Assembly (NCBI RefSeq): GCF_056712565.1
Contig: NZ_CM160072.1
DNA: 64,000 nucleotides
Reading direction: 5' to 3' (one strand)
Each line of letters opens with the position of its first letter. The first letter of the stretch is position 1. Position numbers and translations under genes: made by a program. The notes below the pieces were generated by a model. The model did no database searches and had not been told where the DNA came from. It was given only the letters and a program-made list of their open reading frames with translations. Positions 54,820 to 64,000 of this stretch are shown here, piece after piece.

Positions 54820-55215
<396 letters not shown>

Positions 55216-55238
55216 TCCTTTATATTGAGTGTATCGCC

Positions 55239-55264
55239 AACGCGCCTTCGGGCGCGTTTTTTGT
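55239..55264 (+). terminator. raiA terminator
   Basis: aacgcgcc-ttcg-ggcgcgtt followed by tttttt. Confidence 0.6.
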
Positions 55265-55318
55265 TGACAGCGTGAAAACAGTACGGGTACTGTACTAAAG
55301 TCACTTAAGGAAACAAAC

Positions 55319-55366
55319 ATGAAACACACACCGTTTTTCTTCGCATTCTTTTTTACCTTCCCCTGA
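55319..55366 (+). CDS. pheL: pheA leader peptide (Phe-rich attenuation peptide)
   Basis: atg…tga encodes MKHTPFFFAFFFTFP*, seven Phe in 15 aa. Confidence 0.85.
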   Translation: MKHTPFFFAFFFTFP

Positions 55367-55414
55367 ATGGGAGGCGTTTCGTCGTGTGAAACAGAATGCG
55401 AAGACGAACAATAA

Positions 55415-55444
55415 GGCCTCCCAAATCGGGGGGCCTTTTTTATT
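55415..55444 (+). terminator. pheA attenuator terminator
   Basis: aggcctccc-aaatc-ggggggcct followed by ttttttt, between pheL and pheA. Confidence 0.7.
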
Positions 55445-55464
55445 GATAACAAAAAGGCAACACT

Positions 55465-56625
55465 ATGACATCGGAAAACCCGTTACTGGCGCTGCGAGAG
55501 AAAATCAGCGCGCTGGATGAAAAATTATTAGCATTACTGGCAGAGCGACGCGAACTGGCCGTCGAGGTGGGAAAAGCCAAACTGCTCTCGCATCGCCCGG
55601 TACGTGATATTGATCGTGAACGCGATTTGCTGGAAAGATTAATTACGCTCGGTAAAGCGCACCATCTGGACGCCCATTACATTACTCGCCTGTTCCAGCT
55701 CATCATTGAAGATTCCGTATTAACTCAGCAGGCTTTGCTCCAGCAACATCTCAATAAAATTAATCCGCACTCAGCACGCATCGCTTTTCTCGGCCCCAAA
55801 GGTTCTTATTCCCATCTTGCGGCGCGCCAGTATGCTGCCCGTCACTTTGAGCAATTCATTGAAAGTGGCTGCGCCAAATTTGCCGATATTTTTAATCAGG
55901 TGGAAACCGGCCAGGCCGACTATGCCGTCGTACCGATTGAAAATACCAGCTCCGGTGCCATAAACGACGTTTACGATCTGCTGCAACATACCAGTTTGTC
56001 GATTGTTGGCGAGATGACGTTAACTATCGATCATTGTTTGTTGGTCTCCGGCACTACTGATTTATCCGCCATCAATACGGTCTACAGCCATCCGCAGCCA
56101 TTCCAGCAATGCAGCAAATTCCTTAATCGTTATCCGCACTGGAAGATTGAATATACCGAAAGTACGTCTGCGGCAATGGAAAAGGTTGCACAGGCAAAAT
56201 CACCGCATGTTGCTGCGTTGGGAAGCGAAGCTGGCGGCACTTTGTACGGTTTGCAGGTACTGGAGCGTATTGAAGCGAATCAGCGACAAAACTTCACCCG
56301 ATTTGTGGTGTTGGCACGTAAAGCCATTAACGTTTCTGACCAGGTTCCGGCGAAAACGACGTTGTTAATGGCGACCGGACAACAAGCTGGTGCACTGGTT
56401 GAAGCGTTGCTGGTACTGCGCAATCACAGTCTGATTATGACCCGTCTGGAATCACGTCCGATTCACGGTAATCCGTGGGAAGAGATGTTTTATCTGGATA
56501 TTCAGGCCAATCTTGAATCAGCGGAAATGCAAAAAGCATTGAAAGAGTTAGGGGAAATCACCCGTTCGATGAAGGTATTGGGCTGTTACCCAAGTGAGAA
56601 CGTAGTGCCTGTTGATCCAACCTGA
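55465..56625 (+). CDS. pheA: Chorismate mutase / prephenate dehydratase
   Basis: 386 aa. Confidence 0.95.
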
Positions 56626-56667
56626 TGAAAAAGTGCCGGATGATGTGAATCATCCGGCACTGGATTA

Positions 56668-57789
56668 TTACTGGCGATTGTCATTCGCCTGACGCAATAA
56701 CACGCGGCTTTCACTCTGAAAACGCTGTGCGTAATCGCCGAACCAGTGCTCCACCTTGCGGAAACTGTCAATAAACGCCTGCTTATCGCCCTGCTCCAGC
56801 AGCTCAATCGCCTCGCCGAAACGCTTATAGTAACGTTTGATTAACGCCAGATTACGCTCTGACGACATAATAATGTCGGCATAAAGCTGCGGATCCTGAG
56901 CAAACAGTCGCCCGACCATCGCCAGCTCAAGGCGGTAAATCGGCGAAGAGAGCGCCAGTAGTTGCTCAAGCTGAACATTTTCTTCTGCCAGGTGCAGCCC
57001 ATAAGCAAAAGTAGCAAAGTGGCGCAGAGCCTGAATAAACGCCATATTCTGATCGTGCTCGACAGCGCTAATACGATGCAACCGAGCGCCCCAGACCTGA
57101 ATTTGCTCCAGAAACCATTGGTATGCTTCCGGCTTACGTCCATCACACCAGACCACAACTTGCTTTGCCAGGCTACCGCTGTCCGGGCCGAACATCGGGT
57201 GTAACCCCAGCACCGGGCCATCGTGCGCCGCCAGCATGGCCTGTAATGGTCCATTTTTCACCGATGCCAGATCAACCAGAATACAATCTTTCGGTAAAGG
57301 CGGTAATTTGCCGATAACTTGCTCAGTAACGTGGATGGGCACACTAACAATCACCATTCCGGCATCGGAAACAATATCAGCCGCTCGATCCCAGTCATGT
57401 TGCTCCAGAATCCGCACCTGATAACCCGAGAGTGTCAGCATCTTCTCGAACAGACGTCCCATCTGACCGCCACCACCGACGATAACCACCGGGCGCAGTG
57501 ACGGACAAAGCGTTTTAAATCCTTTGTCGTTTTCACTGGAGTAAGATTCACGCATCACCCGACGCAAAACATCCTCAATCAGATCTGGCGGTACACCCAG
57601 AGCTTCCGCCTCTGCACGACGCGAGGCCAACATAGATGCCTCGCGCTCCGGAACATAAATAGGCAGTCCAAAGCGGCTTTTCACCTCGCCCACTTCAGCA
57701 ACCAGTTCCAGACGCTTCGCTAATAAATTCAGCAGCGCTTTATCGACTTCATCAATTTGATCGCGTAATGCGGTCAATTCAGCAACCAT
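56668..57789 (-). CDS. tyrA: Chorismate mutase / prephenate dehydrogenase
   Basis: 373 aa. Confidence 0.95.
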
Positions 57790-57799
57790 AATAAACCTC

Positions 57800-58870
57800 T
57801 TAAGCCACGCGAGCCGTCAGCTGCCCGTTCAGATCCTGATGAATTTCACGCAGCAAGGCATCGGTCATTTCCCAGCTAATGCAGGCATCGGTTACGGATA
57901 CACCGTATTTCATTTCACTGCGCGGTTGCTCGGAAGACTGATTGCCCTCGTGGATATTACTTTCGATCATCAGACCAATAATTGAGCGATTGCCATCTTT
58001 GATTTGAGCAACCACGGATTCTGCCACCGCAGGCTGACGGCGATAATCTTTATTGGAATTACCGTGGCTGCAATCTACCATCAGAGACGGGCGCAGTCCC
58101 GCCTGTTCCATCTCTTTTTCACATTGCGCAACATCCGCAGGGCTATAGTTTGGCGCTTTACCACCGCGCAGGATCACATGCCCGTCCGGATTCCCCTGAG
58201 TTTGTAGCAACGCAACCTGCCCTGCCTGGTTAATGCCAACAAAACGGTGCGGCTGGGCGGCGGCACGCATAGCGTTAATTGCCGTTGCCAGACTGCCATC
58301 GGTGCCGTTTTTAAAACCAACCGGCATGGAAAGCCCGGAGGCCATTTCACGGTGAGTTTGCGATTCCGTTGTACGAGCACCAATTGCTGACCAGCTAAAC
58401 AGATCGCCCAGGTATTGCGGGCTATTCGGATCTAACGCTTCCGTCGCCAGTGGCAGTCCCATATTCACCAGCTCAAGCAGCAATTTACGCGCGATCTGCA
58501 GCCCGGCTTCTACATCAAAAGAGCCATCCATATGGGGATCGTTAATTAACCCTTTCCAGCCGACAGTGGTACGGGGTTTTTCAAAATAGACGCGCATTAC
58601 CAGATAGAGGCTATCGCTGACCTCTGCGGCAAGGGCTTTAAATCGACGAGCATATTCCAGAGCAGTTTCCGGATCATGAATGGAACAAGGACCACATACT
58701 ACCAGCAGACGAGGATCGCGCCCGGCGATAATATCTGAAATGGTTTTACGCGAGTCAGCAATCTGGGCTTCTTGTTGCAGGCTTAATGGAAAAGCGGCCT
58801 TCAGTTGTTCCGGAGTCATTAAAACCTGTTCGGCGGTAATATGTACGTTATTCAGCGCGTCTTTCTGCAT
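57800..58870 (-). CDS. aroF: Tyrosine-sensitive DAHP synthase
   Basis: Start at [15 protein letters not shown] (356 aa). Confidence 0.95.
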
Positions 58871-59016
58871 GATGGCGATCCTGTTTATGCTCGTTTGCGA
58901 TAGTTGATCCTCAGCGAGGATGACGTAACGATAACACATAAAGTAAAGTTTTCAATCCATATTTCGTACACATTTCTTTACATAAGCAATTTATTCGCGC
59001 TTTTTCCCCTTATTTC

Positions 59017-59034
59017 TGTATAAATAAATTTACA
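59017..59034. promoter_or_regulatory. TyrR box (TGTAAA-N6-TTTACA-like) in the aroF upstream region
   Basis: tgtataaataaatttaca; a second, weaker box lies near 58955-58975. Confidence 0.5.
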
Positions 59035-59079
59035 CCAGCTTTAAAAACAATCCGCTATGCTTTGAAAAAGGAGAAAGAA

Positions 59080-59445
59080 ATGATGAAAAAATTTATCGCC
59101 CCCTTGTTGGCTTTACTGGTTAGCGGATGTCAGATTGATCCTTATACTCACGCGCCAACCTTGACCAGCACCGACTGGTATGATGTTGGTATGGAAGATG
59201 CGATATCGGGCAGCGCCATTAAAGATGACGATGCATTTAGCGATTCACAGGCGGATCGCGGTCTATACCTTAAAGGATATGCCGAAGGGCAAAAGAAAAC
59301 TTGCCAGACCGATTTTACTTATGCCCGGGGACTTTCTGGTAAAAGCTTTCCTGCCAGCTGCAATAATGTTGAAAATGCCAGCCAACTGCATGAAGTATGG
59401 CGAAAAGGGGCTGATGAAAATGCCAGCACAATACGATTAAATTAA
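59080..59445 (+). CDS. yfiL: Lipoprotein YfiL
   Basis: Start at MMKKFIAPLLALLVSGCQ with lipobox (121 aa). Confidence 0.8.
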   Translation: MMKKFIAPLLALLVSGCQIDPYTHAPTLTSTDWYDVGMEDAISGSAIKDDDAFSDSQADRGLYLKGYAEGQKKTCQTDFTYARGLSGKSFPASCNNVENASQLHEVWRKGADENASTIRLN

Positions 59446-59593
59446 TTACCCCCCCAAAATCAATTAAGCATGAGATTTTACTCATTATGTTTTATTTTTC
59501 ACATTGATGACGACCGCATGAAAGGATGATATTTTAATGAGCATTCTGAAAAAATATCGATGCATTTCGAGCGAAGATGGTGAGGATCCCTGA

Positions 59594-60112
59594 ATGCGTT
59601 TTTCTCACCGACTGTTCTTACTGCTGATTCTCCTGCTGACGGGAGCACCAATACTCGCTCAGGAACCTTCTGACGTTGCGAAAAACGTGCGTATGATGGT
59701 TTCCGGTATTGTCAGTTACACCCGCTGGCCTGGGCTATCAGGGCCACCAAAGTTATGTATCTTTTCATCTTCACGTTTTAGTACCGCCTTACAAGAAAAT
59801 GCTGCTACATCTTTGCCTTATCTGCCTGTCATCATTCATACTCAACAAGAGGCGATAATTTCAGGCTGCAATGGTTTTTATTTTGGCAACGAGTCACCGA
59901 CATTCCAGATGGAATTAACCGAACAATATCCGTCAAAGGCGTTATTATTAATTGCCGAACAAAATACCGAGTGCATTATTGGTAGCGCCTTTTGTCTGAT
60001 CATCCACAATAATGACGTCAGATTTGCCGTAAACCTGGATGCTTTATCTCGTAGCGGTGTAAAAGTCAACCCGGATGTCTTAATGCTCGCACGGAAGAAA
60101 AATGATGGATAA
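59594..60112 (+). CDS. yfiR: Periplasmic repressor YfiR of the YfiN diguanylate cyclase
   Basis: 172 aa with signal peptide; conserved yfiRNB operon. Confidence 0.85.
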
Positions 60113-61328
60113 CGATAATTCTCTTAATAAGCGCCCCACGTTTAAAAGAGCATTACGCAACATCAGTATGACCAGCATATTTATCACTATGATGCTGATC
60201 TGGCTGCTGCTTTCCGTGACGTCAGTGCTGACCCTGAAACAGTACGCGCAAAAAAACCTGGCACTGACAGCAGCAACAATGACTTACAGTCTGGAAGCAG
60301 CTGTCGTTTTTGCCGATGGCCCTGCAGCAACTGAAACACTGGCAGCGCTGGGCCAGCAAGGCCAATTTTCAACTGCAGAAGTGCGTGATAAGCAGCAAAA
60401 TATTCTGGCATCCTGGCATTACACCCATAAGGAACCAGGCGATACTTTCAGCAATTTCATAAGCCACTGGCTCTTCCCTGCCCCCATCATTCAGCCGATT
60501 CGCCACAATGGTGAAACTATTGGCGAAGTACGCTTAACTGCTCGCGACAGTTCAATCAGCCATTTTATCTGGTTTTCGCTCGCTGTCCTGACCGGTTGTA
60601 TTCTGCTGGCATCAGGCATCGCAATTACCCTCACCCGCCATTTGCACAATGGCCTGGTGGAAGCGCTGAAAAATATCACCGATGTCGTACATGATGTGCG
60701 TTCTAACCGCAATTTTTCCCGACGAGTTTCGGAAGAACGTATCGCTGAGTTTCACCGCTTCGCTCTCGACTTCAACAGTCTGCTGGATGAAATGGAAGAG
60801 TGGCAGCTTCGTTTACAGGCCAAAAATGCGCAGCTTCTACGTACCGCGCTACATGACCCATTAACCGGGCTGGCTAACCGCGCAGCGTTTCGTAGCGGCA
60901 TCAACACGTTGATGAACAATTCCGATGCCCGAAAAACGTCGGCGTTACTATTTCTTGATGGCGATAATTTCAAATATATCAATGATACCTGGGGTCATGC
61001 GACGGGCGATAGAGTCTTGATTGAAATAGCAAAACGGTTAGCTGAATTTGGCGGGCTGCGACATAAAGCATACCGCCTGGGCGGCGATGAATTCGCTATG
61101 GTGCTCTATGATGTACAGTCGGAATCTGAAGTGCAGCAGATATGCTCAGCACTGACACAAATTTTTAATCTCCCGTTTGATCTTCATAATGGCCATCAAA
61201 CTACCATGACATTAAGCATTGGTTACGCGATGACTATTGAGCACGCCTCTGCGGAAAATTTACAAGAGCTTGCCGATCACAATATGTATCAGGCCAAACA
61301 CCAGCGTGCCGAAAAGCTGGTGAGATAA
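60102..61328 (+). CDS. dgcN: Diguanylate cyclase YfiN/DgcN (TM-HAMP-GGDEF)
   Basis: 408 aa; GGDEF-domain active-site motif present as RLGGDEF. Confidence 0.9.
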
Positions 61329-61343
61329 CAAGGATATATCGAT

Positions 61344-61826
61344 ATGATAAAGCACCTGCTAGCACCCCTGATTTTCACCTCGCTAATACTTACTGGCTGC
61401 CAGTCCCCTCAGGGAAAGTTTACTCCTGAGCAAGTCGCCGCTATGCAATCTTATGGATTTACTGAATCCGCCGGCGACTGGTCGCTGGGCTTATCAGATG
61501 CCATTCTGTTTGCAAAAAATGACTACAAATTGCTCCCGGAAAGCCAGCAACAGATCCAAACCATGGCAGCCAAATTGGCCTCGACAGGGCTAACACATGC
61601 CCGTATGGATGGACACACCGACAACTATGGTGAAGACAGTTACAACGAAGTCTTATCATTGAAACGGGCGAATGTCGTGGCCGATGCATGGGCTATGGGT
61701 GGACAAATTCCGCGCAGCAATCTCACCACACAGGGTTTAGGAAAAAAATATCCCATAGCCAGTAACAAGACCGCCCAGGGCCGCGCCGAGAACCGCCGCG
61801 TCGCAGTGGTGATTACAACCCCTTAA
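61344..61826 (+). CDS. yfiB: OmpA-family outer-membrane lipoprotein YfiB
   Basis: 160 aa; lipobox LTGCQS; OmpA-like C-terminus. Confidence 0.9.
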   Translation: MIKHLLAPLIFTSLILTGCQSPQGKFTPEQVAAMQSYGFTESAGDWSLGLSDAILFAKNDYKLLPESQQQIQTMAAKLASTGLTHARMDGHTDNYGEDSYNEVLSLKRANVVADAWAMGGQIPRSNLTTQGLGKKYPIASNKTAQGRAENRRVAVVITTP

Positions 61827-61998
61827 AACACGAGCAAACAGACAAAAAAAGGGCCAGCCAATTGGCCAGCCCTTCTTAACAGGATGTCGCTTAAGCGAAA
61901 TCTTAGTTAAGACGCTCCTATTAACACCCCGCAACAAACAAACGCTTACCATATAAAACAATTAGTTAAAGTAATTTTTAATGCAATGAATTGCAGTG

Positions 61999-63048
61999 TT
62001 ATGCAACCTCTGCCGCCATATTGTCGCCAACATACAGCGATAACGGATTAAGGGTTACAGCTTGTTCAAGGTGGTCAGGAGCAAAGTGTGCATACTTCAT
62101 TGTTTCTCGAATATTGGCATGCCCGAGAATTTTCTGCAGTACCAGTATATTCCCGCCGTTCATCATAAAATGCGCACCAAAAGTATGACGCAAAACGTGC
62201 GTCTTCTGCCCTTCCGTCAATTCAATATTCGTTAGTTTGAGCATCTTCTTAAACTCCTGATAGCAGGGTTTAAACATTCTGCCTTGACGTACGGACAACT
62301 CGTCGTACAGCCATTTAGGAATAGGAACTGTGCGATTCTTCTTACCTTTGGTTTTGGTGAACGTCAGTTTATATGGAGAAAGTTGAGGGCGGGTCAATCT
62401 CTCCGCTTCCCCCCATCGAGCGCCGGTTGCAAGGCACACCTTAACAATCATGGTGAGGTCTTCTTTGCCGTATTGCTCGCAGGCTCGAAACAGCTCCGGG
62501 AGCTGAGACAAAGTTAGCCAGGACATTTCTTTCTCAGCCTCTTTGAATACTCGGATCCCATCAAGTGGATTGGGTAGGCTCCACTCCCCTAACCGGCGGA
62601 GCTCATTAAACACTGCTTCTAGGTATTGTTGTTCGCGATTGACGGTTATAGGTTTGGCGATCCATTTCGAGGGGTCTTTATGATAACCGTTGTCTATTTC
62701 ACCACGTAATCGACGGTCACGATAATGAGCCCAGTCTTTCGCGGTAAGGCGAGATGCAATCGGGTCACCAAGCCCATTACATACGATTTGAAGCTTTGCT
62801 AACCTCGACTTACTGGCGACTAACGCTTGACCGTGCAAATTGTGCCAAAGCTGAATAATCTCGCTTAAGCGTCGGCGGTCTTCTTTCTTGCCAAGCCACG
62901 GCTTATCTTCACTCTCGCTTTTGGTAAATGCTTCGAATGCCTCGGCCTCACCTTTGGTATTGAATTGCCGACGTATACGCCGCCCTTCTCGACCATTTGG
63001 ATAGAGCTCGCATAACCATTTGCCATTTTTTTGCTTACTTACAGTCAT
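61999..63048 (-). CDS. int: Tyrosine integrase, phage 186/P2 type
   Basis: 349 aa; MTVSKQKNGKWLCELYPNGREGRRIRRQF…, …CLATGARWGEAERL…, …HVLRHTFGAHFMMNGGNILVLQKILGH…YAHFAP… closely parallels 186/P2 Int as recalled. Confidence 0.85.
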   Translation of the reverse strand: MTVSKQKNGKWLCELYPNGREGRRIRRQFNTKGEAEAFEAFTKSESEDKPWLGKKEDRRRLSEIIQLWHNLHGQALVASKSRLAKLQIVCNGLGDPIASRLTAKDWAHYRDRRLRGEIDNGYHKDPSKWIAKPITVNREQQYLEAVFNELRRLGEWSLPNPLDGIRVFKEAEKEMSWLTLSQLPELFRACEQYGKEDLTMIVKVCLATGARWGEAERLTRPQLSPYKLTFTKTKGKKNRTVPIPKWLYDELSVRQGRMFKPCYQEFKKMLKLTNIELTEGQKTHVLRHTFGAHFMMNGGNILVLQKILGHANIRETMKYAHFAPDHLEQAVTLNPLSLYVGDNMAAEVA

Positions 63049-63070
63049 AATGTCACCGAGGCAACTCTAA

Positions 63071-63409
63071 TTATTCGCAAAGTGCTGTTGCGGCATCCAT
63101 TACAGGATCCAAAGGAATTTTTACACCTGCATACTCTGGACTGTCTTTCCAAACAGCATCAATATTGCTCCCCTCAAGCTTTCCAGACTTTACTCCATCA
63201 ATAGCAAAACCATTTAATGGGTATCGGTCATCAGTTGCTTTGTCGTATACAAAGGCATACTTACCGTTAACGCAAGACACCGTAGCTTTTTCAAAAGTTA
63301 ACGGCCAATCCTCACCAAACTTAGCGCCATCTAAATCCTGTGTTTTTTCAGCGGCTAAGGAGCCAAAAGAAAAGGTAAGAAGCATAGCTAAAAAGAGTTT
63401 ACGTTTCAT
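63071..63409 (-). CDS. Small exported protein of unknown function (prophage cargo between int and repressor)
   Basis: Start taken at MKRKLFLAMLLTFSFGSLAA (signal peptide, no lipobox); mature ~90 aa with two Cys; sits in the int-cI lysogenic transcription unit. Start codon is inferred; the track ORF extends further upstream. Confidence 0.55.
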   Translation of the reverse strand: MKRKLFLAMLLTFSFGSLAAEKTQDLDGAKFGEDWPLTFEKATVSCVNGKYAFVYDKATDDRYPLNGFAIDGVKSGKLEGSNIDAVWKDSPEYAGVKIPLDPVMDAATALCE

Positions 63410-63417
63410 AATTTCCC

Positions 63418-63984
63418 TTATACGTGTTTTTCCAATGTGAAAACTACAACCCCGGCAGGCGTAATGTCGGTAATGTTGCATTCAAACTCAGCAGACTTAT
63501 TTGACAACCTGACTTTTCCACCAGGTAAACGAATTACATCAAAAACATCAAGAGCGCCGTCGATATCAATTAACCAGCGACCATTACTTATATTCGAAGC
63601 AGAACAGTCGACAAGCCAAGAGGCAGCTACACCGTCAACAAAAATCAATTCCCCTGAGTTAGAAGGAATCATTGAGGGGTCAGGATGCCACGTTCCTGCA
63701 TCCTTAAGCTCACCAGATTCAAGACGAGATTTTTTAATAGAAAAACCAGATGTGACATCTTCCCTGTTAGCTCGCATTTGCCCCTTGCCTGTTGCTAACC
63801 ATTCCAGTGACGTATCGGTATCAAGAGCGCATGTAACAACAACATCACCAGGGAAAAAATCTCGCCTTACCCATGTGCTAATTGTGCCAGAGGAAATGCC
63901 GAGCAAATCACCGAGCTCCTTTTGCATGGTAAAGCCATACGCATCAAGAATCCTACGCAAAACGGTTTTACCACCATTCGTCAT
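63418..63984 (-). CDS. Phage CI-type repressor (N-terminal HTH, C-terminal oligomerisation domain), 186 CI-like
   Basis: 188 aa; N-terminus LRRILDAYGFTMQKELGDLLGISSGTISTWV is an HTH; size and position match 186 cI. Confidence 0.7.
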   Translation of the reverse strand: MTNGGKTVLRRILDAYGFTMQKELGDLLGISSGTISTWVRRDFFPGDVVVTCALDTDTSLEWLATGKGQMRANREDVTSGFSIKKSRLESGELKDAGTWHPDPSMIPSNSGELIFVDGVAASWLVDCSASNISNGRWLIDIDGALDVFDVIRLPGGKVRLSNKSAEFECNITDITPAGVVVFTLEKHV

Positions 63985-64000
63985 AATCTCGTCATAAAGC

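What the first reader, a model, noticed from the sequence alone, without database searches (positions are those of the whole stretch)
61827..62000. Candidate attL / integration junction between the yfiB terminator and the integrase 3' end
The integrase stop is ~170 bp from the yfiB stop. P2/186-type prophages place attP immediately 3' of int, so the junction and core repeat should lie in this AT-rich interval. There is no tRNA here, so the element probably uses an intergenic or protein-gene-adjacent core sequence.
Basis: inference. Interest (0 to 1): 0.4.

Follow-up and report, generated by a model that had tools for sequence, protein, structure and literature searches.

The report
Prophage attachment junction in rplS tail
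The interval holds the integrase-side junction (attL) of a 31-kb PSP3/186-like prophage that inserted into the last four codons of the ribosomal protein gene rplS and rebuilt the gene from phage DNA, which is an ordinary, textbook kind of phage integration.

Summary
The host/prophage junction lies inside 61827-62000. Comparing attL (window), an empty site and attR of the same lysogen gives one perfect shared core, AGTTAAGACGCTC, at window 61905-61917. The core also sits 31,360 bp away at the far prophage end, outside the window.

The target is not intergenic. The core is the complement of the last four codons of rplS (E-R-L-N) plus the first base of its stop codon. At attR the phage supplies a new stop (TGA in place of TAA) and its own terminator, and protein L19 is unchanged.

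The reconstructed attP is contiguous in free phages SW9, SI22, PSP3, SEN1, Midge and RCIP0057. Paired 186-type Int arm repeats (62011-62018, 62022-62029) lie inside the last codons of int, so the functional attL runs past 62000.

In one-per-species genomes, 20 of 20 integrases at 68% identity or more sit next to an rplS tail, against 0-1 of 59 at 62% or less. About 1% of complete E. coli genomes are lysogens at this site.

A 2019 paper already lists a PsP3-like prophage at "yfiN-rplS". Ordinary; low interest.

The parts
61834..61877 (-). Native intrinsic terminator of rplS (hairpin 61877..61846 followed by a T-run on the - strand). After integration it is cut off from rplS and lies downstream of int.
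   Evidence: The terminator scan finds a 14-pair stem plus T-run on the - strand. RNAfold gives -22.3 kcal/mol on the - strand against -14.7 on the + strand, with the U-run only on the - strand. The sequence is identical to the empty-site sequence.
61882..61898 (.). Host rplS 3'-UTR segment GGATGTCGC overlapping the 12-bp palindrome TCGCTTAAGCGA (61887-61898). GGATGTnGC is also present at the same distance from the core in every attP examined. Its role is unknown.
   Evidence: Alignments; coordinates checked. The motif is absent from the Yokenella host flank, so it is probably not required for integration.
61903..61917 (-). Orphaned tail of rplS: codons E-R-L-N plus the TAA stop (61903-61905), preceded in frame by the phage-derived stops TAA and TAG.
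   Evidence: Translation of window 61903-61962 on the - strand ends '...GC**ERLN*'. L19 ends ...KERLN*.
61905..61917 (.). Common core (O) AGTTAAGACGCTC, the only stretch identical in attL, attB and attR. The strand-exchange (overlap) region must lie inside it.
   Evidence: Three-way comparison. The 13-mer occurs exactly at both prophage ends. Empty-site genomes match the window up to 61917.
61918..61998 (.). Phage P' arm spacer, 69% A+T. It contains an IHF-consensus-like site AAACAATTAGTTA (61956-61968, one mismatch to WATCAANNNNTTR) and a conserved inverted repeat TGCAATGAATTGCA (61982-61995).
   Evidence: Composition and IHF scan. Conservation across attL/attP of seven phages and lysogens. 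The stretch is contiguous with the P arm in free phage genomes. Binding of IHF or any other protein is inferred, not shown.
62011..62029 (+). Two arm-type Int-binding repeats, TGCCGCCA (62011-62018) and TGTCGCCA (62022-62029), 11 bp apart and inside the last 10 codons of int.
   Evidence: They match the published 186-type arm consensus tgccGCCActt (PMC3448106). The same oriented repeats stand at three positions on the far (P) arm, 87-119 bp from the attR core. They are invariant across relatives and hold their distance from the core in lysogens where 1.1 kb of cargo separates them from int. The 8-mer on its own is common in the window (21 copies), so the evidence is the paired, positioned, conserved arrangement.
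61999..63048 (-). int, a tyrosine integrase of the P2/186/HP1 family (349 aa).
   Evidence: Pfam Int_N and Phage_integrase. The best solved relatives are HP1 integrase (1aih) and an integrase of entry 5c6k. It is 91-98.6% identical to Int of PSP3, SEN1, SW9, SI22, Midge and RCIP0057. Box motifs ATGARWGE, HVLRHTF, LGHANI and KYAH are visible in the translation.

Best explanation
Window 61827-62029 is attL (the int-proximal BOP' junction) of an apparently complete 31.4-kb PSP3/186-like (Eganvirus-type) prophage.

**Integration.** The phage tyrosine integrase recombined attP with a chromosomal attB that is the 3' tail of the essential ribosomal protein gene rplS. Strand exchange took place inside the 13-bp identity AGTTAAGACGCTC (61905-61917).

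**Effect on rplS.** attP carries a copy of the last four rplS codons followed by its own stop codon and its own intrinsic terminator. The intact rplS at the far junction (attR, outside the window) therefore still encodes an unchanged L19. Its stop changes from TAA to TGA, and it acquires a phage 3' UTR and terminator.

**What attL retains.** It holds the orphaned ERLN-stop tail and the native rplS terminator, which now follows int.

**Inferred assembly.** By analogy with P2, 186 and lambda, the N-terminal domain of Int binds the paired TGYCGCCA arm repeats in the int tail and on the P arm, the core-binding domain binds the rplS tail, and the AT-rich spacer is bent, probably by IHF. Excision would recombine attL with attR, directed by the phage excisionase/Apl-like factor.
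For: **Shown**
- Empty-site genomes (5,378 of 5,425) match the window only to 61917.
- attL-left and attR-right are base-for-base identical to attB, and the three share only 61905-61917.
- The core occurs exactly at the two ends of a 31,360-bp element that carries a full P2-type gene set running from int to an ogr-like gene.
- The attP rebuilt from the two junctions is contiguous at 82-93% identity in free phages SW9, SI22, PSP3, SEN1, Midge and RCIP0057.
- rplS translates to the same 115-aa L19 in the lysogen and the non-lysogen, under the same RefSeq protein accession.
- Six diverse E. coli lysogens all read TATCAG at attR, which gives a TGA stop.
- In GTDB species representatives, 20 of 20 integrases at 68% identity or more are followed by an rplS tail remnant, against 0-1 of 59 at 62% or less. 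Fisher p is about 1e-17 to 4e-19.
- In Enterobacter and Yokenella the gene beyond the tail differs, so the target is rplS and not yfiB.

**Supporting the inferred parts**
- The arm repeats match the published 186-type consensus, are paired at 11-bp spacing on both arms, and hold their position relative to the core.
- In both the native and the phage hairpin, sequence variants keep G.U pairs on the - strand but give C.A mismatches on the + strand.
- Int domain identities track arm type (N-terminal domain) and target (core-binding domain) separately.
Against: - No recombination was observed. Integration, excision competence and the cleavage positions are all inferred from sequence.
- The identity is only 13 bp here, against 17 bp (TCTTAGTTAAGACGCTC) for the Salmonella phages. 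The recognised core is therefore certainly wider than the identity block, and its limits are unknown.
- The IHF-like site has one mismatch, and similar matches occur nearby.
- The arm 8-mer is frequent in this genome.
- The dyad symmetry I looked for around the core gave no consistent placement of a 6-8 bp overlap.
Confidence: 0.93

Rival explanations
1. The attachment core is intergenic, or merely adjacent to yfiB, and no gene is touched. This is the alternative the first reader offered.
For: There is no tRNA here, and the interval lies between two annotated CDSs in the lysogen.
Against: The core is the complement of GAG CGT CTT AAC T, the last four rplS codons plus the first stop base. In Enterobacter and Yokenella the junction follows the rplS tail although yfiB is about 2 kb away.
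Confidence: 0.02
2. The functional core is substantially larger than 13 bp. It would be either the 17-bp TCTTAGTTAAGACGCTC seen in Salmonella phages, or an imperfect segment of about 36 bp that includes GGATGTnGC. On this reading the 13 bp is only what polymorphism leaves identical in this E. coli phage lineage.
For: SW9 and PSP3 share 17 bp with E. coli attB, and GGATGTnGC is invariant in attB and all attP examined. By established knowledge, core-type Int sites of lambda-family integrases flank a 6-8 bp overlap, so recognition must extend beyond the identity block.
Against: Six E. coli lysogens all carry the 13-bp version, so it is sufficient for integration. The Yokenella host flank lacks GGATGT. 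Relatives such as L012 appear to shorten the identity on the other side, to about GCGTCTKAAC.
Confidence: 0.35
3. The junction is a fossil. The prophage is defective or locked in, and attL no longer recombines.
For: No experimental evidence of induction is available here. I did not examine the excision factor, which lies outside the window.
Against: The element has the complete P2-type gene set with no annotated pseudogenes. Its int is 100% identical to that of a deposited phage record, vB_EcoM-613R3. Both junctions and the arm repeats are intact. Lysogens occur in many unrelated strains.
Confidence: 0.12
4. The 13-bp repeat is a chance match, and the element entered by another route such as homologous recombination or transposition.
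For: None beyond the shortness of the repeat.
Against: The empty site is clean, the far-end repeat is exact, attP is contiguous in free phages, and 20 of 20 related integrases sit at the same target in about a dozen genera.
Confidence: 0.01

Closest known systems
Salmonella phage PSP3 and its relatives SW9, SI22, SEN1, Escherichia phage Midge and Klebsiella phage RCIP0057 (Peduoviridae; PSP3, SW9 and SEN1 are classified as Eganvirus)
   Same: The ogr-like gene, attP, int, DUF2511 gene and CI are arranged the same way. Int is 91-98.6% identical and the attP DNA 82-93% identical, including the ERLN-stop mimic, the terminator hairpin and the arm repeats.
   Different: The E. coli prophage lineage carries TATCAG (TGA stop, 13-bp identity) where SW9 and PSP3 carry TCTTAG (TAA stop, 17-bp identity). 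Midge and RCIP0057 carry the CTG Leu codon, which matches Enterobacter-type rplS.
Prophage phiSPU2 of Salmonella Pullorum (PsP3-like, 31.1 kb, insertion site listed as 'yfiN-rplS'; PMC6449608, Table 1)
   Same: Same phage type, size and chromosomal locus, so the site is already on record at locus level.
   Different: The paper gives only a table entry. It does not say that the core lies in rplS codons, that the stop changes, or that the terminators are exchanged.
Coliphage 186
   Same: 186-type CI repressor domains, 186-type arm-repeat consensus tgccGCCActt, and attP next to int (PMC3448106).
   Different: 186 integrates into tRNA-Ile genes. This Int is about 50-60% identical to other 186- and Fels-2-group integrases and targets a protein-coding gene.
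Phage P2
   Same: attP lies between ogr and int, there are paired arm repeats on both arms, IHF is required, and Int belongs to the same structural family (the IHF requirement is from established knowledge of P2).
   Different: The P2 arm repeats are tgTGGaCa, and its preferred sites lie between genes. A sub-branch of the rplS-targeting clade (for example L012, L015, L025) does carry P2-type arms and a matching N-terminal domain.
Phage 21 and e14 at icd (integration into the 3' end of a protein gene, with a phage-borne replacement end). This comparison rests on established knowledge and was not tested here.
   Same: The logic is the same: the core overlaps the 3' coding end, and the phage supplies a substitute end so that the gene stays functional.
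   Different: At icd the replacement end alters several codons. Here only four codons are replaced, and the protein is unchanged.
Group B Streptococcus prophages of integrase type GBSInt3 (insertion site 'rplS-3' end'; PMC7487436, Table 1)
   Same: Unrelated phages of Gram-positive bacteria use the same host gene end.
   Different: The core sequence, integrase lineage and host are all different. This is convergence, not homology.

Membership tests
Prophage attL (BOP') of a tyrosine-integrase site-specific recombination system | The same core sequence as a direct repeat at both ends of the element | tested here: met
   AGTTAAGACGCTC lies at window 61905-61917 and at L001 10603-10615, and nowhere else in 44 kb.
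Prophage attL (BOP') of a tyrosine-integrase site-specific recombination system | An uninterrupted attB in strains without the element that equals attL-left + core + attR-right | tested here: met
   5,378 of 5,425 E. coli genomes match only to 61917. The flanks are base-for-base identical to strain Es_ST80.
Prophage attL (BOP') of a tyrosine-integrase site-specific recombination system | attP (attR-left + core + attL-right) contiguous in the free phage genome | tested here: met
   There is 100% query coverage at 82-93% identity in SW9, SI22, PSP3, SEN1, Midge and RCIP0057.
Prophage attL (BOP') of a tyrosine-integrase site-specific recombination system | An adjacent tyrosine recombinase gene with a catalytic domain | tested here: met
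   Pfam Int_N and Phage_integrase. PDB hits to HP1 integrase 1aih and to entries 5c6k and 5dor. R, HxxR, H and Y motifs are visible in the translation.
Prophage attL (BOP') of a tyrosine-integrase site-specific recombination system | Demonstrated integrative and excisive recombination at this site | not testable with these tools
   This needs induction with junction PCR, or in vitro recombination.
P2/186-family attP architecture | At least two direct arm-type repeats on each side of the core | tested here: met
   P' arm at 62011 and 62022. P arm at three positions 87-119 bp from the attR core, all in one orientation. The repeats are conserved across relatives. The consensus comes from PMC3448106.
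P2/186-family attP architecture | An IHF-binding site between the core and the arm repeats | tested here: inconclusive
   AAACAATTAGTTA at 61956-61968 has one mismatch to WATCAANNNNTTR and is conserved in relatives, but other one-mismatch matches lie nearby.
186-type (as opposed to P2-type) regulatory and integration module | CI-type repressor and tgccGCCActt arm repeats | tested here: met
   Pfam Phage_CI_repr and Phage_CI_C. Arm repeats.
tRNA- or tmRNA-targeting integrases (186, Fels-2, HP1) | The core overlaps the 3' end of a tRNA or tmRNA gene | tested here: not met
   There is no tRNA or tmRNA in 55000-64000, nor in 32 related loci. The core lies in rplS codons.
Integration into the 3' end of a protein-coding gene with reconstitution (phage 21/e14-icd type) | The core overlaps terminal codons, and the phage supplies a replacement end that keeps the ORF intact | tested here: met
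   The last four codons and the stop are supplied by attP. L19 is identical in lysogen and non-lysogen.

The most novel reading that the evidence does not exclude
The rplS tail is the dedicated attachment site of a whole clade of Peduoviridae integrases across about a dozen genera of Enterobacterales. Members of the clade have exchanged their arm-binding module (186-type against P2-type) while keeping their core specificity. Integration also swaps terminators: the int terminator becomes the rplS terminator, and the rplS terminator becomes the int terminator. That swap could measurably alter the 3' UTR, stability or read-through of the essential rpsP-rimM-trmD-rplS operon, or it could act as a lambda-sib-like switch on int expression between the phage and prophage states.
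Probability: 0.15. Interest if true: 0.45.

Novelty: already known. Interest (0 to 1): 0.2.

Why it matters
The result places a prophage boundary to the base: the prophage runs from 61918, just past the attL core, to beyond the window end. It corrects two labels. The target is the rplS tail, and the hairpin is the rplS terminator. It also gives a simple rule that anyone annotating P2-like prophages in Enterobacterales can use: an Int at 68% identity or more to this one implies an attB at the rplS tail. Biologically it is one more case of a phage choosing a very conserved gene end and carrying a spare copy of it, here in an essential ribosomal protein gene. It opens no new question on its own.

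Tried and rejected
- **tRNA/tmRNA target.** ARAGORN found none in the window tail or in 32 related loci.
- **Known RNA element in the interval.** An Rfam scan at E<=1 gave only two sub-threshold chance hits.
- **The arm 8-mer as evidence on its own.** Rejected, because TGYCGCCA occurs 21 times in the window against about 7 expected. This is probably compositional. Only the paired, oriented, conserved arrangement counts.
- **Placing the 6-8 bp overlap by dyad symmetry.** I tried TCTTA-GT-TAAGA in attB and GTTAA-N10-TTAAC in attP. Either centre puts a mismatched base inside the overlap, so the overlap is bounded only to 61905-61917.
- **GGATGTnGC as a required recognition element.** Doubtful, since the Yokenella host flank lacks it.
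- **Literature.** Seven searches used, plus one call that errored (69). They found no base-level description of this site. They found one locus-level table entry (PMC6449608) and a 2011 survey that lists no site for PsP3 (PMC3448106). A hit in an Edwardsiella genome paper was irrelevant.
- **First ERLN motif scan.** It missed relatives whose phage side reads AAAAGCGTC, so it was relaxed.

Full report
**Observation.** The window tail reads aroF, yfiL, yfiR, dgcN and yfiB (61344-61826, + strand). A 172-bp gap follows, and then three genes on the - strand: a 349-aa integrase (61999-63048), a DUF2511 gene, and a 186-type CI repressor that runs off the window. ARAGORN finds no tRNA or tmRNA in 55000-64000.

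**Mapping the junction.** A megablast of 61344-62300 against 5,426 complete E. coli genomes matched 5,425 of them. Only 47 carried the integrase part. The others matched up to window 61917 and then continued into rplS. Window 60001-64000 is identical to strain SF-468, where a P2-type gene set lies between yfiB and rplS. It runs from int, CI and CII through the replication, capsid and tail genes to D and an ogr-like gene. I aligned attL (window), attB (strain Es_ST80, L002) and attR (SF-468, L001). attL is identical to attB on the left, attR is identical to attB on the right, and all three share only AGTTAAGACGCTC at window 61905-61917. This 13-mer occurs once in the window. It occurs exactly twice in the 44-kb lysogen locus, 31,360 bp apart. 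The far copy (attR) lies about 29 kb beyond the window end.

**What the target is.** The complement of the core is GAG CGT CTT AAC T, the last four codons of rplS (E-R-L-N) plus the first base of its stop. In attL the tail is orphaned. The frame reads ...GC**ERLN*, with phage-derived stops directly upstream. At attR the phage contributes the rest of the stop, so TAA becomes TGA. L19 is the same 115-residue protein, with the same RefSeq accession, in lysogen and non-lysogen. Six lysogens spanning 94-100% identity at attR all carry the TGA form. By established knowledge rplS is an essential gene, so reconstitution is a precondition for lysogeny at this site.

**attP in free phages.** Joining attR-left, the core and attL-right gives a sequence that is contiguous over its full length in Salmonella phages SW9 and SI22 (93%), PSP3 and SEN1 (84%), Escherichia phage Midge (83%) and Klebsiella phage RCIP0057 (82%). 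In each it lies between the ogr-like gene and int. Int is 91-98.6% identical to the integrases of these phages and about 60% identical to Fels-2 Int. SW9 and PSP3 read TCTTAGTTAAGACGCTC, which gives 17 bp of identity with E. coli attB and a TAA stop. Midge and RCIP0057 carry the CTG Leu codon found in Enterobacter-type tails. The phage core therefore follows the host codon.

**Anatomy of attL, left to right** (coordinates checked):
- 61834-61877: native rplS terminator.
- 61882-61898: host 3'-UTR segment GGATGTCGC overlapping the palindrome TCGCTTAAGCGA.
- 61903-61917: orphan rplS tail.
- 61905-61917: core.
- 61918-61998: AT-rich P' spacer, with an IHF-like site (61956-61968, one mismatch) and a conserved inverted repeat (61982-61995).
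- 61999-62001: int stop codon.
- 62011-62018 and 62022-62029: two arm-type repeats, TGCCGCCA and TGTCGCCA, 11 bp apart, inside the last ten int codons.

The arm repeats match the published 186-type consensus tgccGCCActt (PMC3448106). The same motif, in the same orientation, stands at three positions 87-119 bp from the attR core. About 20 E. coli lysogens, such as EC1, have 1.1 kb of AT-rich cargo inserted next to a shorter int allele. In these the repeats (cCGCCGCCActtTGCCGCCActt) stay at the same distance from the core, not from int. The 8-mer alone is common in this genome. The argument therefore rests on pairing, position and conservation. Binding of Int and IHF is inferred.

**Terminator exchange.** The native hairpin folds at -22.3 kcal/mol on the - strand against -14.7 on the + strand, and its U-run is on the - strand. 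It is therefore the rplS terminator rather than a yfiB terminator. attP carries a second hairpin (GGGGTTAGC...GCTAACCCC followed by a U-run on the - strand) on the other side of the core. Across eleven variants, substitutions keep G.U pairs on the - strand and give C.A mismatches on the + strand. That strand is the sense strand of both int and rplS. I infer that in the free phage this hairpin ends the int transcript. After integration it would end the rplS transcript, and int would then end at the old rplS terminator. No transcript data were available to test this.

**Generality.** A scan of one genome per species (GTDB) with Int returned 79 loci. All 20 integrases at 68% identity or more are followed by an rplS tail remnant (CGTCTNAAC plus stop). 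The remnant usually lies 85-130 nt after int, and in three loci it lies beyond 1.3-2 kb of cargo. The records are named Escherichia, Enterobacter, Yokenella, Citrobacter, Franconibacter, Kosakonia, Pectobacterium, Winslowiella, Pantoea and Chimaeribacter, plus one soil metagenome genome and one record labelled Chryseobacterium. None of the 59 integrases at 62% identity or less has the remnant, apart from one match in an unrelated context. Fisher p is about 1e-17 to 4e-19. In Enterobacter and Yokenella yfiB lies about 2 kb from the junction, so the specificity is for rplS.

Within the clade there are two N-terminal domain types. They are 48-58% identical to each other and go with either 186-type or P2-type arm repeats. 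The core-binding domain stays 71-89% identical. Conversely, a non-rplS integrase (L040) keeps 72% identity in the N-terminal domain but only 57% in the core-binding domain. This fits the accepted division of labour between Int domains (PMC3448106).

**Frequency.** 67 of 5,426 complete E. coli genomes carry a phage-type attR at rplS, and 47 carry this int allele at attL.

**Literature and novelty.**
- A 2019 Salmonella Pullorum paper lists a 31.1-kb PsP3-like prophage with insertion site 'yfiN-rplS' (PMC6449608).
- A 2011 survey of P2-like integrases gives no site for PsP3 (PMC3448106).
- Group B Streptococcus prophages of an unrelated integrase type also use the rplS 3' end (PMC7487436).
- I found no base-level description of the enterobacterial site in the held library.

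The kind of system is textbook and the locus is on record. The coding-tail core, the stop change, the terminator exchange and the clade rule are incremental additions.

**Shown and inferred.**
- Shown: the position of the junction, the extent of identity, the far-end repeat, the empty site, attP in free phages, the unchanged L19, and the clade-wide association.
- Inferred: the cleavage positions (bounded only to 61905-61917), Int and IHF binding, terminator function, and present-day excision competence.

**Leads that failed.** The Rfam scan of the interval gave nothing above chance. Dyad-symmetry arguments did not place the overlap. The GGATGTnGC motif shared by attB and attP is missing from the Yokenella flank, so it is probably ancestry rather than a requirement.

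Noticed in passing
L092 1-960 and L093 1-1470 (E. coli EC1, NZ_CP058574.1); also L014, L020 and L023 downstream of int: About 20 E. coli lysogens at the same rplS site carry a 1.1-kb AT-rich insert, with a 161-aa hypothetical gene, between the P' arm repeats and a shorter int allele (81% DNA identity). Three other species have 1.3-2 kb between int and the rplS tail. The int/attP boundary looks like an accessory-gene hotspot.
   Followed up: partly
L012, L013, L015, L025 (int 3' end and the 120 nt after it) compared with window 62011-62029: Some rplS-targeting integrases have P2-type arm repeats (TGTCCACA/TGACCACA on the int-sense strand, 11-bp spacing) and a different N-terminal domain (KKLxSGEWLxDFRVDG). 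Their core-binding domain stays 71-89% identical to the window Int. This is an arm-module swap within one target-specificity clade.
   Followed up: partly
window 61982-61995: The inverted repeat TGCAATGAATTGCA just 3' of the int stop is nearly invariant in all attL and attP sequences examined. Its 2-nt spacer is too short for an RNA hairpin loop, so it is probably a protein-binding site of unknown partner.
   Followed up: no
window 61918-61923, and the same position in every attP: An in-frame stop codon (TAG, or TAA in Pectobacterium fontis) directly precedes the ERLN codons on the phage side of the core in every attP or attL seen.
   Followed up: no
window 63071-63409 (- strand): A DUF2511 gene, encoding a predicted secreted or lipoprotein-like product, sits between int and CI. 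It is conserved at this position in PSP3, SW9, SEN1, Midge and the E. coli lysogens. It may be a lysogenic-conversion gene co-transcribed with CI and int.
   Followed up: no
L001 39602-40462 compared with window 63418-63984: RefSeq annotates the CI repressor as 286 aa. The 188-aa ORF that starts at window 63984 already contains the complete Phage_CI_repr and Phage_CI_C domains, so the annotated start may be over-extended.
   Followed up: no
hit H18 (NZ_CM151361.1), yfiB-rplS spacer: One E. coli genome has an IS200/IS605 transposase inserted in the same yfiB-rplS spacer.
   Followed up: no
L020, L033, L042: Records labelled Chryseobacterium sp. 18061, Martelella alba and a Bacillota MAG carry enterobacterial-type P2-family integrases. 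L020 even has an rplS tail with an E. coli-like flank. These are probably contamination or misbinning.
   Followed up: no
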